Positions 30,600 to 34,226 of a DNA stretch of 64,000 nucleotides are shown piece after piece. The stretch lies in the NCBI RefSeq assembly GCF_003019035.1, contig NZ_CP027447.1; one strand, written 5' to 3'. The DNA is from Escherichia coli. GTDB taxonomy: Bacteria; Pseudomonadota; Gammaproteobacteria; Enterobacterales; Enterobacteriaceae. Below the pieces are notes generated by a model that worked only from the letters and a program-made list of their open reading frames with translations, was not told the DNA's origin and ran no database searches. Positions within the stretch are counted from its first letter, which is position 1; each line of letters opens with the position of its first letter. The position numbers were made by a program, and so were the translations under genes.

Positions 30600-31961
30600 T
30601 TAGCGACCAGGAAATCCCGGCGGCATCATCCCTTTCATGCTTCTCATCATCTTTGCCATTCCGCCCTTCTTCATTTTCTTCATCATGCGCTGCATGTCGT
30701 CGAACTGTTTCAGAAGACGGTTAACGTCCTGCACCTGCATACCGCAACCGGCAGCGATACGGCGTTTACGCGAACCTTTGATGATTTCTGGCTTAGCGCG
30801 CTCTTTCATCGTCATCGAGTTGATGATGGCTTCCATACGCACCAGCACTTTATCGTCCATCTGCGACTTGACGTTATCCGGGATCTGCCCCATGCCCGGA
30901 AGTTTGCCCATCAGGCTGGCCATGCCGCCCATATTTTTCATCTGGCGCAGCTGCTCAAGAAAGTCGTTGAGATCGAAGCCGTCGCCTTTTTTCAGCTTGC
31001 TGGCTAATTTCTCTGCCTGCGCGCGGTCAACTTTGCTTTCAATATCTTCGATCAGTGACAGTACGTCGCCCATGCCGAGAATACGCGACGCGATGCGGTC
31101 CGGATGGAACGGCTCCAGCGCCTCAGTTTTCTCGCCAACACCGAGGAACTTGATCGGTTTGCCAGTGATGTGACGAATAGAGAGCGCCGCACCGCCGCGG
31201 GCATCGCCGTCCACTTTGGTCAACACTACGCCCGTAAGCGGTAACGCTTCATTAAATGCTTTTGCCGTATTGGCCGCATCCTGACCAGTCATGGCATCAA
31301 CCACAAACAGGGTTTCAACCGGATTAATCGACGCATGGACTTGTTTGATCTCGTCCATCATCGCTTCGTCAACGTGCAGACGACCGGCGGTATCCACCAG
31401 CAGCACGTCGTAGAATTTCAGTTTGGCTTCTTTCAGCGCCGCGTTAACGATATCTACCGGCTTCTGACCAACATCAGAAGGGAAGAAATCAACGCCCACC
31501 TGCTCTGCCAGCGTCTCCAGCTGTTTGATTGCCGCCGGACGATAAACGTCGGCAGAAACCACCAACACTTTTTTCTTGTGCTTCTCACGCAGGAACTTAC
31601 CGAGCTTGCCCACGCTGGTTGTTTTACCGGCACCTTGCAGGCCCGCCATCAGTACCACCGCTGGCGGTTGCGCAGCCAGATTCAGGGTCTGGTTCTCTTC
31701 GCCCATCGCCGCAACCAGTTCGTTACGGACGATTTTGACGAACTCCTGCCCCGGCGTCAGGCTCTTATTAACTTCATGACCAACCGCTTTCTCTTTTACG
31801 CGATTGATAAACTCACGCACTACCGGCAGGGCGACGTCCGCCTCCAGCAGCGCCATGCGCACTTCGCGCAGCGTATCTTTTACGTTGTCTTCAGTGAGGC
31901 GTCCACGGCCACTGATATTGCGCAGCGTGCGCGACAAACGATCGGTTAAATTATCAAACAT
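30600..31961 (-). CDS. ffh: Signal recognition particle protein Ffh
   Basis: 453 aa; SRP54-type GTPase (GLQGAGKTT Walker A) with Met-rich C-terminal M domain. Confidence 0.97.
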   Translation of the reverse strand: MFDNLTDRLSRTLRNISGRGRLTEDNVKDTLREVRMALLEADVALPVVREFINRVKEKAVGHEVNKSLTPGQEFVKIVRNELVAAMGEENQTLNLAAQPPAVVLMAGLQGAGKTTSVGKLGKFLREKHKKKVLVVSADVYRPAAIKQLETLAEQVGVDFFPSDVGQKPVDIVNAALKEAKLKFYDVLLVDTAGRLHVDEAMMDEIKQVHASINPVETLFVVDAMTGQDAANTAKAFNEALPLTGVVLTKVDGDARGGAALSIRHITGKPIKFLGVGEKTEALEPFHPDRIASRILGMGDVLSLIEDIESKVDRAQAEKLASKLKKGDGFDLNDFLEQLRQMKNMGGMASLMGKLPGMGQIPDNVKSQMDDKVLVRMEAIINSMTMKERAKPEIIKGSRKRRIAAGCGMQVQDVNRLLKQFDDMQRMMKKMKKGGMAKMMRSMKGMMPPGFPGR

Positions 31962-32127
31962 TGTCTCTCGCCTGGGGTGGAAACGGTTGGCCGCAATCGC
32001 GACACATCATCAGTATTTTGCCGCAGTATAACATGAAGGCGTCTTTGTTGTTATGCAACGGTTGGAGCAGCGTTCACCTGACGCTATACTGCTTCTCTTT
32101 CTTATTGCTCAAACTGTCGACATCACT

Positions 32128-32919
32128 ATGCCCGTTTTTGCTCTGCTCGCGCTTGTCGCCTACTCCGTCAGTCTTGCGCTGATTGTTCCCGGTCTGCTGC
32201 AAAAAAACGGCGGCTGGCGGCGCATGGCTATTATTTCTGCGGTCATTGCGCTGGTCTGCCACGCAATCGCTCTGGAAGCCCGCATCCTGCCCGACGGTGA
32301 TAGCGGACAAAACCTCAGCCTGCTGAACGTTGGTTCATTGGTCAGTTTGATGATCTGTACGGTAATGACCATTGTGGCTTCTCGCAATCGTGGCTGGTTG
32401 CTGCTACCCATTGTCTATGCCTTTGCGCTTATCAACCTGGCGCTGGCGACCTTCATGCCCAATGAATACATAACCCATCTGGAAGCAACGCCTGGGATGC
32501 TGGTGCACATTGGCTTATCGCTCTTTTCCTATGCCACGCTAATTATCGCCGCCCTGTACGCGCTGCAACTGGCGTGGATTGATTACCAACTGAAGAACAA
32601 GAAACTGGCGTTTAACCAGGAAATGCCGCCATTGATGAGTATCGAGCGTAAAATGTTCCACATCACGCAGATTGGCGTGGTGCTGCTAACGCTCACGCTT
32701 TGCACTGGCCTGTTCTACATGCACAACTTATTTAGCATGGAAAATATCGACAAGGCCGTGCTCTCTATCGTGGCGTGGTTTGTCTATATTGTGCTGCTGT
32801 GGGGACATTATCATGAAGGATGGCGTGGACGCCGCGTCGTCTGGTTTAACGTTGCGGGTGCAGTCATTCTGACACTGGCCTACTTCGGCAGCCGAATTGT
32901 CCAGCAGTTAATCAGCTAA
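32128..32919 (+). CDS. ypjD: Cytochrome c assembly-family inner membrane protein YpjD
   Basis: ORF trimmed to MPVFALLALVAYSVSLALIVPGLL (263 aa); multiple TM helices. Confidence 0.85.
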   Translation: MPVFALLALVAYSVSLALIVPGLLQKNGGWRRMAIISAVIALVCHAIALEARILPDGDSGQNLSLLNVGSLVSLMICTVMTIVASRNRGWLLLPIVYAFALINLALATFMPNEYITHLEATPGMLVHIGLSLFSYATLIIAALYALQLAWIDYQLKNKKLAFNQEMPPLMSIERKMFHITQIGVVLLTLTLCTGLFYMHNLFSMENIDKAVLSIVAWFVYIVLLWGHYHEGWRGRRVVWFNVAGAVILTLAYFGSRIVQQLIS

Positions 32920-32939
32920 ACCCAGAAAAGGAGTTTCCC

Positions 32940-34226
32940 CTGGAACACATTTCTACTACTACGTTGATCATTATTCTGATCATCATGGTGGTCATTTCAG
33001 CCTATTTTTCCGGGTCCGAAACCGGAATGATGACCCTCAACCGCTATCGTCTGCGACATATGGCGAAACAGGGTAATCGCTCGGCCAAACGCGTCGAAAA
33101 ATTGCTGCGTAAGCCAGACCGCCTGATTAGCCTGGTGTTAATCGGCAATAACCTGGTCAATATTCTTGCCTCCGCGCTCGGCACTATTGTTGGGATGCGT
33201 TTGTACGGCGATGCGGGCGTGGCAATTGCAACTGGTGTGCTGACTTTTGTCGTACTGGTATTTGCTGAGGTATTGCCGAAAACCATTGCCGCGCTGTACC
33301 CGGAAAAAGTCGCTTATCCGAGTAGTTTTCTGCTGGCTCCGCTGCAAATTTTGATGATGCCGCTGGTCTGGTTGCTGAATGCTATCACCCGTATGCTGAT
33401 GCGCATGATGGGTATCAAAACCGATATCGTGGTTAGCGGCTCTTTGAGCAAAGAAGAGTTGCGCACCATCGTGCACGAATCGCGCTCACAAATTTCCCGT
33501 CGCAATCAGGATATGCTGCTTTCGGTACTCGATCTGGAAAAGATGACCGTCGATGACATCATGGTGCCGCGCAGTGAAATTATCGGTATTGATATCAACG
33601 ATGACTGGAAATCGATTCTGCGCCAACTCTCCCACTCACCTCACGGACGTATCGTGCTCTACCGTGACTCGCTGGACGATGCCATCAGTATGCTGCGAGT
33701 ACGTGAAGCCTGGCGACTCATGTCGGAGAAAAAAGAGTTCACCAAAGAGACGATGCTGCGTGCTGCGGACGAAATCTATTTTGTCCCGGAAGGTACGCCG
33801 CTCAGCACGCAGTTGGTGAAGTTTCAGCGCAACAAAAAGAAAGTCGGCCTGGTCGTCAACGAGTACGGAGACATTCAGGGGCTGGTGACGGTTGAAGATA
33901 TTCTGGAAGAGATTGTCGGCGATTTCACTACGTCGATGTCGCCAACACTTGCCGAAGAGGTCACGCCGCAAAACGACGGGTCGGTAATTATCGATGGCAC
34001 CGCCAACGTGCGAGAAATTAACAAAGCCTTTAACTGGCATCTACCGGAAGATGATGCTCGTACTGTTAACGGCGTCATTCTGGAAGCGCTGGAGGAGATC
34101 CCGGTAGCAGGCACCCGCGTGCGTATTGGCGAGTACGATATCGATATTCTCGACGTACAGGACAATATGATTAAGCAGGTAAAAGTTTTTCCTGTAAAAC
34201 CGCTGCGCGAGAGTGTGGCGGAGTAA
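32940..34226 (+). CDS. yfjD: CNNM/CorC-family inner membrane protein YfjD (DUF21 + CBS pair + CorC_HlyC)
   Basis: Start uncertain: aaaaggag RBS then in-frame CTG at 32940 (xEHISTTTLIIIL, 428 aa as recalled for K-12) or the ORF-track TTG at 32964 (420 aa). Confidence 0.8.
   Translation: MEHISTTTLIIILIIMVVISAYFSGSETGMMTLNRYRLRHMAKQGNRSAKRVEKLLRKPDRLISLVLIGNNLVNILASALGTIVGMRLYGDAGVAIATGVLTFVVLVFAEVLPKTIAALYPEKVAYPSSFLLAPLQILMMPLVWLLNAITRMLMRMMGIKTDIVVSGSLSKEELRTIVHESRSQISRRNQDMLLSVLDLEKMTVDDIMVPRSEIIGIDINDDWKSILRQLSHSPHGRIVLYRDSLDDAISMLRVREAWRLMSEKKEFTKETMLRAADEIYFVPEGTPLSTQLVKFQRNKKKVGLVVNEYGDIQGLVTVEDILEEIVGDFTTSMSPTLAEEVTPQNDGSVIIDGTANVREINKAFNWHLPEDDARTVNGVILEALEEIPVAGTRVRIGEYDIDILDVQDNMIKQVKVFPVKPLRESVAE

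What the first reader, a model, noticed from the sequence alone, without database searches (positions are those of the whole stretch)
32928..32966. Probable non-ATG (CTG or TTG) start for yfjD
The only strong RBS (aaaaggag) precedes an in-frame CTG at 32940 and a TTG at 32964; no ATG is available near the conserved N-terminal TM region. The true initiation codon affects the N-terminal topology of this CNNM/CorC-family membrane protein.
Basis: seen in the sequence. Interest (0 to 1): 0.15.

Follow-up and report, generated by a model that had tools for sequence, protein, structure and literature searches.

The report
Known CTG start codon of yfjD
The E. coli membrane transporter gene yfjD (corB) starts translation at the rare codon CTG at window position 32940, not at the TTG eight codons later; this was shown by experiment in 2012-13 and is already in the reference annotation, so the finding is correct but ordinary.

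Summary
The window is E. coli chromosome (ffh, ypjD, yfjD, grpE, nadK). AAGGAG lies at 32928-32933, six bases upstream of an in-frame CTG at 32940. This CTG is the first NTG codon (ATG, GTG, TTG or CTG) of the open frame. A TTG sits at 32964 (codon 9).

- RefSeq and MG1655 (b4461, YP_026171.3, 428 aa) already annotate the CTG.
- The EcoGene 3.0 paper (PMC3531124) reports that start-codon mutagenesis with protein fusions confirmed it, and that mutating the TTG had no effect.
- Across 80 Enterobacteriaceae sequences, codon 1 is always NTG (CTG 37, TTG 30, GTG 13).
- Codon 9 drifts among six leucine codons.
- Codon-like variation begins at codon 2.
- Only the CTG has a Shine-Dalgarno (ribosome-binding) sequence upstream.

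An in-frame ATG does exist, at 32985 (codon 16, inside TM1). Topology should not flip, because only eight polar residues are added to the N-terminal tail.

Extras from this work: ATG is never used in this family, CTG species carry a stronger Shine-Dalgarno sequence (possible compensation), and public databases still hold 413-, 420- and 428-aa versions.

Verdict: already known, low interest.

The parts
32128..32919 (+). ypjD CDS (upstream gene of the same transcription unit). Its TAA stop at 32917-32919 lies 20 nt before the yfjD start.
   Evidence: RefSeq annotation mapped from L001. The gap from the ypjD stop to the yfjD start is 12-30 nt in 74 of 80 Enterobacteriaceae sequences.
32928..32933 (+). 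Shine-Dalgarno sequence AAGGAG
   Evidence: duplex -8.2 kcal/mol with the 16S 3' end. Positions -12 to -7 are the only conserved block upstream of codon 1 in the 79 related loci.
32934..32939 (+). 6-nt spacer TTTCCC between the Shine-Dalgarno sequence and the start codon
   Evidence: These positions are variable across species.
32940..32942 (+). CTG initiation codon of yfjD (read as Met by initiator tRNA)
   Evidence: Annotated start in RefSeq and MG1655. Mutagenesis reported in PMC3531124. In 80 sequences the codon is CTG, TTG or GTG, with TG invariant.
32943..32963 (+). Codons 2-8 (E H I S T T T), the N-terminal tail that is lost if the TTG is taken as the start
   Evidence: Codon positions 1 and 2 are almost invariant while third positions vary. 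The tail is colinear with the M-[DE]-N-I-[STP] N-termini of 40-49% identical orthologs.
32964..32966 (+). TTG, codon 9: an ordinary internal leucine codon and the former annotated start
   Evidence: It is CTG, CTC, CTA, CTT, TTG or TTA in other species, and TTG in only 8 of 80. No Shine-Dalgarno sequence precedes it. Mutating it had no effect.
32985..32987 (+). ATG, codon 16: an internal Met inside TM1, which gene callers that do not allow CTG pick as the start
   Evidence: Invariant in 80 of 80 sequences but with no Shine-Dalgarno sequence upstream. 413-aa calls are on at least 1000 contigs.
32940..34226 (+). yfjD (corB) CDS, 428 aa plus stop; a CNNM/CorB-type HlyC/CorC family transporter
   Evidence: Pfam CNNM, CBS and CorC_HlyC. 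NCBIfam equivalog NF008604 scores 866.6 bits and aligns 1-427 of 428 positions.

Best explanation
yfjD (corB) is translated from the CUG codon at window 32940. The 30S ribosomal subunit is positioned by the AAGGAG Shine-Dalgarno sequence six nucleotides upstream. Initiator fMet-tRNA pairs with CUG with one mismatch at the first base, so the protein begins Met-Glu-His-Ile-Ser-Thr-Thr-Thr-Leu and is 428 residues long. TTG 32964 is simply leucine codon 9, and ATG 32985 is Met-16 inside the first transmembrane helix.

CUG initiates at only about 1-2% of the AUG rate in reporter assays, so the start is intrinsically weak. I infer that the strong, well-spaced Shine-Dalgarno sequence supports it. Ribosomes terminating at the ypjD stop 20 nt upstream probably help as well.

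Shown: the annotation, the published mutagenesis and the comparative signature. Inferred: the contributions of Shine-Dalgarno strength and of coupling to ypjD, and the idea that weak initiation is selected.
For: (1) RefSeq/PGAP (WP_010723175.1) and MG1655 (b4461, YP_026171.3) annotate a 1287-nt CDS starting at this CTG.

[quoted passage not shown] It was the second CTG start in K-12 after hda.

(3) In the 79 other Enterobacteriaceae loci plus the window, codon 1 is CTG 37, TTG 30, GTG 13. Position 1 changed at least 8 times on the gene tree, and positions 2 and 3 never changed. Third positions of codons 3-20 (apart from the invariant Met-16) changed 4-22 times. Codon 9 uses six different leucine codons.

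(4) Three-base periodicity of variation begins exactly at codon 2. Upstream, only AAGGA(G) at -12 to -7 is conserved.

(5) Pairing energy with the 16S rRNA 3' end is -8.2 kcal/mol for the CTG, +2.8 for the TTG and +0.6 for ATG-16.

(6) Distant orthologs that keep the ffh-ypjD-yfjD gene order (40-49% identity) start at the homologous codon with ATG, TTG, GTG and ATG, and their N-termini read M/L-[DE]-N-I-[STP]. Of 93 distant representatives, 63 have N-termini within 3 residues of the 428-aa form.

(7) The NCBIfam equivalog NF008604 aligns 1-427 of 428 positions. Pfam CNNM begins at residue 11. Solved CorB/CorC structures align their residue 10-11 to query residue 10.

(8) CUG initiates at 1-2% of AUG in reporters (bioRxiv 10.1101/063800).
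Against: The mutagenesis is cited in the paper as unpublished results (Dague and Rudd), so the primary data cannot be inspected.

I found no table of ribosome-profiling start sites or N-terminal proteomics that lists yfjD in the supplements held here.

A minor additional product from ATG-16 cannot be excluded from sequence alone.

Coupling to ypjD cannot be essential. Six CTG-start species have 104-159 nt between ypjD and yfjD.
Confidence: 0.93

Rival explanations
1. Translation starts at TTG 32964 (the pre-2013 K-12 annotation, 420 aa), and the eight codons upstream are untranslated leader.
For: TTG is a far more efficient start codon than CTG in general. The 420-aa form is still present in public databases on 389 contigs, for example B7UH61_ECO27 and Shigella sonnei Ss046. 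It is also the first start listed by an ATG/GTG/TTG-only ORF finder.
Against: No Shine-Dalgarno pairing is available upstream (+2.8 kcal/mol).

The codon is TTG in only 8 of 80 Enterobacteriaceae sequences and is otherwise CTG, CTC, CTA, CTT or TTA, none a canonical start and four of them not NTG at all.

The 21 nt upstream evolve as codons under purifying selection.

Mutating it had no effect on expression.
Confidence: 0.02
2. ATG 32985 (codon 16) is the main start, or a second start, giving a 413-aa protein that lacks the first half of TM1.
For: It is the only in-frame ATG near the N-terminus and is invariant in 80 of 80 sequences. Automated gene callers choose it often. The 413-aa form is on at least 1000 contigs, and the 50%-identity cluster representative P0121 starts there.
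Against: No Shine-Dalgarno pairing is available upstream (+0.6 kcal/mol).

Met has a single codon, so its invariance is explained by protein-level conservation.

Codons 2-15 show coding-type conservation.

Starting here would remove Pfam CNNM profile positions 1-5 and truncate TM1.

The reported mutagenesis assigns expression to the CTG.
Confidence: 0.04
3. This is a variant of the mechanism, not a different start site. Initiation at the CUG depends mainly on ribosomes that have just terminated at the ypjD stop (32917-32919) and re-initiate 20 nt downstream, rather than on free 30S subunits binding anew.
For: The gap from the ypjD stop to the yfjD start is 12-30 nt in 74 of 80 Enterobacteriaceae sequences. 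It is 3-19 nt in three distant orthologs that keep the ffh-ypjD-yfjD order. There is no significant mRNA structure around the start (z = -1.07).
Against: Six CTG-start species (the Raoultella group, C. amalonaticus S646, Intestinirhabdus) have 104-159 nt inserted between the genes yet keep AAGGAG-N6-CTG.

The Shine-Dalgarno sequence is conserved everywhere, which argues that it does the positioning.

No experiment available here addresses coupling.
Confidence: 0.3

Closest known systems
yfjD (b4461) CTG start as curated by EcoGene and GenBank U00096.3 / RefSeq NC_000913.3 (YP_026171.3; WP_010723175.1)
   Same: It is the same gene, the same codon and the same 428-aa product. The window sequence around the start is identical to MG1655.
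   Different: Nothing differs at the start. The window is 100% identical over 32700-33300 to strain SCU-301, and MG1655-lineage K-12 strains show about 99% over the same stretch.
hda of E. coli, the first chromosomal gene shown to start at CTG
   Same: A CUG initiation codon in a K-12 chromosomal gene, found after an earlier mis-annotation at a downstream start (as cited in PMC3531124).
   Different: A different gene and function (regulator of DnaA). I did not examine its Shine-Dalgarno sequence or context here.
infC (IF3) AUU start codon (from my own knowledge of the field)
   Same: A near-cognate, low-efficiency start codon of the class that IF3 discriminates against.
   Different: For infC the unusual codon is the basis of a demonstrated autoregulatory loop. 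No regulatory role is known or shown for the yfjD CUG.
CNNM/CorB Mg2+ transporters (MtCorB, PDB 7M1T/7M1U; CorC TM domain, PDB 7CFF/7CFG)
   Same: The same domain architecture: CNNM/DUF21 transmembrane domain, CBS pair and CorC_HlyC. The match to 7m1u has E = 6.5e-44 over residues 10-326, and the solved proteins also carry about 10 residues before the aligned part of TM1.
   Different: About 30-40% identity by my eye from the printed alignment. Transport activity of the E. coli protein was not tested here. In Salmonella, corB deletion gave no phenotype in the excess-cation assays of PMC12421838.

Membership tests
Bacterial near-cognate (CUG) initiation codon | The candidate codon is in frame, downstream of the closing stop, and has a Shine-Dalgarno sequence at 5-9 nt | tested here: met
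   TAA at 32847 closes the frame. The CTG is the first NTG codon. AAGGAG lies 6 nt upstream with a -8.2 kcal/mol duplex.
Bacterial near-cognate (CUG) initiation codon | Orthologs carry start-type codons at the homologous position (first base varies, TG fixed) rather than synonymous sense codons | tested here: met
   CTG 37, TTG 30, GTG 13 in 80 sequences, with 0 changes at positions 2 and 3. Distant orthologs have ATG, TTG, GTG and ATG.
Bacterial near-cognate (CUG) initiation codon | Coding-type conservation begins immediately after the codon and not before it | tested here: met
   Per-column entropy shows three-base periodicity from codon 2. Positions -6 to -1 are variable.
Bacterial near-cognate (CUG) initiation codon | Loss of expression when the codon is mutated; no effect when rival starts are mutated | not testable with these tools
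   Reported in EcoGene 3.0 (PMC3531124), where it is cited as unpublished results.
Bacterial near-cognate (CUG) initiation codon | An initiating-ribosome footprint at the codon, or an N-terminal Met-Glu-His peptide | not testable with these tools
   No held supplement lists yfjD.
CNNM/CorB (HlyC/CorC family transporter) | N-terminal CNNM/DUF21 transmembrane domain | tested here: met
   PF01595, 182.5 bits (cut-off 28.4), residues 11-184.
CNNM/CorB (HlyC/CorC family transporter) | [quoted passage not shown] | tested here: met
   PF00571, 35.9 bits. PF03471, 69.4 bits. The CBS-pair crystal structure 3hf7 matches at E = 2e-74.
CNNM/CorB (HlyC/CorC family transporter) | Equivalog-level match to NCBI's YfjD model | tested here: met
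   NF008604, 866.6 bits against a cut-off of 475, aligning 1-427 of 428 positions.
CNNM/CorB (HlyC/CorC family transporter) | Mg2+/Co2+ efflux activity | not testable with these tools
   Only literature on Salmonella corB and on archaeal and thermophile homologs is available.

The most novel reading that the evidence does not exclude
In Enterobacteriaceae the yfjD/corB start may be held deliberately weak, with its strength kept constant by compensation. ATG is never used in 80 sequences despite at least 8 changes of the first base. Species with the weakest codon (CTG) almost always have the longer AAGGAG Shine-Dalgarno sequence (33 of 37; mean -8.1 kcal/mol). TTG and GTG species have AAGGA followed by a non-G base at that position in all 43 (one, kpr-6, has an offset GGGAG); mean about -6.0 kcal/mol. 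This would point to stabilizing selection on a low initiation rate of a Mg2+-efflux-type transporter. It might also make expression sensitive to IF3 level. The published work established the start site but, as far as I found, not this pattern.
Probability: 0.3. Interest if true: 0.3.

Novelty: already known. Interest (0 to 1): 0.1.

Why it matters
For the genome scan this is a correct call of something already curated. yfjD is one of the very few E. coli K-12 genes with a verified CTG start. The practical relevance is to annotation quality.

Gene finders that allow only ATG, GTG and TTG mis-start this gene. The 413-aa (Met-16) and 420-aa (TTG-9) versions are still widespread in public protein databases alongside the correct 428-aa form. 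The representative of the family's 50%-identity cluster is itself a truncated call.

Studies that count positions from the old start can be misled. The MazF-regulon table entry 'yfjD, 17 nt upstream' appears to be one example.

Biologically, the weak start implies low YfjD/CorB synthesis per mRNA. The family-wide avoidance of ATG together with the Shine-Dalgarno co-variation is a small, testable case of start-codon and Shine-Dalgarno compensation.

Tried and rejected
(1) I looked for direct start-site evidence for yfjD in held supplements. The sources were:
- retapamulin Ribo-seq (bioRxiv 10.1101/520783; the Mol Cell DOI is not held);
- TRAINSPOTTER N-terminomics (PMC13245402);
- INRI-seq (PMC9825163);
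- tetracycline-inhibited profiling (PMC4909307);
- Saito et al., eLife (PMC7043885).
None lists yfjD or b4461, or no supplement is held.

(2) I tested for an mRNA structure around the start that might mask or expose the CUG. Folding 32900-32990 gives -16.3 kcal/mol, z = -1.07, which is not different from shuffles. Rejected as a feature.

(3) I tested the motif for chance occurrence. AAGGAG-N6-CTG on its own is not significant in a 64-kb window, so I did not use it as evidence by itself.

(4) The search for homologous proteins returned only relatives of 87% identity or more. The 50%-clustered library collapsed all relatives above 50% into one cluster. Orthologs of intermediate distance (for example Yersinia, Vibrio, Pasteurellaceae) were therefore not sampled. 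I bridged the gap with four 40-49% identical orthologs that keep the same gene order.

(5) ATT 32949 (codon 4) as a start: it is ATC or ATA in most species, which is normal third-position drift. Rejected.

(6) Obligatory translational coupling to ypjD: rejected as a requirement because of the six species with 104-159-nt gaps. It is retained only as a possible contributor.

Full report
**Context.** The stretch 32700-33300 matches 5425 of 5426 complete E. coli genomes and is 100% identical to strain SCU-301. The local genes are:
- ffh (30600-31961, minus strand)
- ypjD (32128-32919, plus)
- yfjD (32940-34226, plus)
- grpE (minus strand)
- nadK (plus)

**Checking the observation.** Direct reading shows ...cagc TAA acccagaAAGGAGtttccc CTG gaa cac att tct act act acg TTG atc att att ctg atc atc ATG gtg...
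- The ypjD stop is at 32917-32919.
- AAGGAG is at 32928-32933.
- The in-frame CTG is at 32940 and the TTG at 32964.
- The frame is closed upstream by TAA at 32847, and no ATG, GTG, TTG or CTG codon lies between that stop and 32940. The CTG is therefore the first possible NTG start.
- Predicted pairing with the 16S rRNA 3' end is -8.2 kcal/mol upstream of the CTG (about the top 1-2% of window positions), +2.8 for the TTG and +0.6 for ATG 32985.
- The statement that no ATG is available is not strictly true. ATG 32985 (codon 16) and GTG 32988 are in frame, inside TM1.
- The bare motif AAGGAG-N6-CTG is not beyond chance in 64 kb: 1 found, 0.31 expected, and 28 of 100 shuffles have at least one. 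Its weight comes from position and conservation.

**What is already recorded.**
- RefSeq/PGAP annotates yfjD in the identical strain as a 1287-nt CDS whose first base maps to window 32940 (WP_010723175.1). The same holds in a 93.6%-identical strain.
- MG1655 NC_000913.3 annotates b4461 (YP_026171.3) at 2748774-2750060, and the first codon there is CTG.
- The EcoGene 3.0 paper (PMC3531124) says the CTG start was predicted from sequence conservation and inspection of ribosome-binding sites.
[quoted passage not shown] Mutating the previously annotated TTG at codon 9 had no effect on expression.
- yfjD was the second CTG start in K-12 after hda.
- The primary data are cited there as unpublished results.

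**Independent comparative test.** A scan of one genome per species returned 80 loci from Enterobacteriaceae, at 87-100% protein identity. One locus is truncated at the start, so 79 were usable alongside the window.
- Codon 1 is CTG in 37, TTG in 30 and GTG in 13, and never ATG or any other codon.
- On a neighbour-joining tree of the gene, the first base of codon 1 changed at least 8 times. Its second and third bases never changed.
- The third bases of codons 3-20 (except Met-16) changed 4-22 times. That is the reverse of sense-codon behaviour and is what a start codon looks like.
- Codon 9, the old TTG start, is CTG 50, CTC 11, TTG 8, CTA 6, CTT 4 and TTA 1. It is an ordinary leucine codon.
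- Per-column entropy shows that codon-type variation (positions 1 and 2 fixed, position 3 free) starts exactly at codon 2.
- Positions -1 to -6 are variable, and the only conserved upstream block is AAGGA(G) at -12 to -7.

**Distant relatives.** Among representatives at 50% identity or less, N-termini such as MDNISTPTLL, LDNITTSTLL, MDNIPIGLL, MENIPIWVF and MTEISIENL are colinear with E. coli MEHISTTTL. Of 93 near-full-length hits, 63 have an N-terminal offset within 3 residues of the 428-aa form, and only 4 fit a TTG-9-like offset.

I fetched DNA for four of these relatives.
- Three keep the ffh-ypjD-yfjD gene order. The fourth contig shows only an uncharacterized upstream ORF.
- They start at the homologous codon with ATG, TTG, GTG and ATG.

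The position of the start is therefore ancient, and the CTG is a variant found within Enterobacteriaceae.

**Protein-level consistency.**
- The NCBIfam equivalog NF008604 aligns 1-427 of its 428 positions.
- Pfam CNNM starts at residue 11, followed by CBS and CorC_HlyC.
- Solved CorB and CorC structures (7m1u, 7cff) align their residue 10-11 to query residue 10, so they too have about 10 residues before the aligned part of TM1.
- The eight extra residues MEHISTTT are polar and carry no basic residue.
- From this I infer that the start choice lengthens the N-terminal tail without changing the orientation of TM1.

**How it most likely works.** The Shine-Dalgarno sequence places the 30S subunit so that the CUG lies in the P site, and initiator tRNA reads it as fMet (established knowledge of near-cognate initiation). 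In reporter assays CUG initiates at about 1-2% of AUG (bioRxiv 10.1101/063800), so the start is weak. There is no significant local mRNA structure.

The ypjD stop lies 12-30 nt upstream in 74 of 80 Enterobacteriaceae sequences, and 3-19 nt upstream in the distant orthologs. Re-initiation by terminating ribosomes may therefore contribute. It cannot be required, because six CTG species have 104-159 nt inserted between the genes and keep AAGGAG-N6-CTG.

**An extra pattern.**
- Species with CTG carry GGAG in the Shine-Dalgarno sequence in 33 of 37 cases (mean duplex -8.1 kcal/mol).
- All 43 TTG or GTG species have AAGGA followed by A, C or T at that position (mean about -6.0).
- One of the 43, kpr-6, has an offset GGGAG.
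- The difference gives Mann-Whitney p = 4e-11, uncorrected for phylogeny.
- On the tree this corresponds, by my count, to about five concordant independent clade contrasts, one neutral (Atlantibacter) and one discordant (ENT03 versus kpr-6).

Together with the complete absence of ATG, this suggests stabilizing selection on a low initiation rate, with compensation between the start codon and the Shine-Dalgarno sequence. The evidence is suggestive only.

**Rivals.**
- TTG 32964 is effectively refuted. It has no Shine-Dalgarno sequence, is not conserved as a start codon, has coding-type conservation upstream of it, and mutating it had no effect.
- ATG 32985 as the main start is very unlikely. It has no Shine-Dalgarno sequence, starting there would truncate TM1 and the CNNM domain, and codons 2-15 are conserved as codons. 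A minor internal product cannot be excluded from sequence alone.

**Database consequences.** All three versions of exactly this protein are in public collections:
- 413 aa, on at least 1000 contigs
- 420 aa, on 389 contigs
- 428 aa, the correct form

The representative of the 50%-identity cluster is a 411-aa call that starts at Met-16 and has a frameshifted tail.

The MazF-regulon table (PMC5001579) lists a yfjD cleavage site 17 nt upstream of the start. There is no ACA 17 nt upstream of the CTG. There is one exactly 17 nt upstream of the old TTG, at 32947-32949. That site therefore probably lies in codons 3-4 of the real reading frame (inference).

**Verdict.** The open question, CTG or TTG, is settled in favour of CTG by published experiment, current annotation and the comparative analysis done here. 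It is already known and of low interest. The only mildly new element is the family-wide avoidance of ATG with a matching shift in Shine-Dalgarno strength.

Noticed in passing
window 32945-32949 (ACACA in codons 2-4 of yfjD): The MazF-regulon paper (PMC5001579) lists yfjD with a cleavage site 17 nt upstream of the start codon. That distance fits the ACA at 32947 only if it is counted from the old TTG start (32964). With the true CTG start the site lies inside the coding sequence, so MazF cleavage would truncate the reading frame rather than shorten a leader.
   Followed up: partly
window 32928-32942 and loci L005-L084, positions -12 to +3 relative to the yfjD start: Start codon and Shine-Dalgarno strength co-vary across Enterobacteriaceae. 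CTG species have AAGGAG in 33 of 37 cases (mean -8.1 kcal/mol). TTG and GTG species have AAGGA followed by a non-G base (mean about -6.0 kcal/mol). ATG is never used in 80 sequences, although distant orthologs do use it.
   Followed up: partly
window 32940-34226 (protein versions P0001, P0271, P0272, P0121): Public databases hold three N-terminal versions of this exact protein: 428 aa (CTG), 420 aa (TTG-9, 389 contigs) and 413 aa (ATG-16, at least 1000 contigs). The 50%-identity cluster representative is a 411-aa call that starts at Met-16 and has a frameshifted C-terminus.
   Followed up: yes
L003 1720-1749 (E. coli strain ChlosBP-23-1), equivalent to window 32919-32939: This strain has a 9-nt insertion (a duplication-like ccccagtaa) between the ypjD stop and the Shine-Dalgarno sequence. 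The Shine-Dalgarno sequence, spacer and CTG are unchanged.
   Followed up: no
L010, L020, L025-L027, L037, upstream of position 1501: In C. amalonaticus S646, the Raoultella group and Intestinirhabdus, 104-159 nt of unrelated sequence lies between ypjD and yfjD, against 12-30 nt elsewhere. AAGGAG-N6-CTG is kept. The nature of the inserts was not determined.
   Followed up: partly
window 32053-32919 (ypjD): The longest ypjD ORF starts at ATG 32053 (288 aa), but RefSeq annotates ATG 32128 (263 aa). Both lengths are present in public protein collections (P0278 and P0277), so ypjD also has an unsettled or inconsistently called start.
   Followed up: no
L085-L087 (marine metagenome contigs): The divergent ffh / ypjD-yfjD arrangement, with only a 3-19 nt gap between ypjD and yfjD, is kept in relatives only 40-45% identical to E. 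coli YfjD. This suggests a long-standing functional or expression link between the cytochrome-c-assembly-like YpjD and the CorB-type transporter.
   Followed up: partly
protein cluster 1; P0002: The 90%-identity cluster that holds YfjD also contains YpjD proteins (263 and 288 aa). A 640-aa Logan call (P0002) is 100% identical to YfjD over 96% of the query. Some fused or mis-called ypjD-yfjD product may be linking the two families in that clustering.
   Followed up: no
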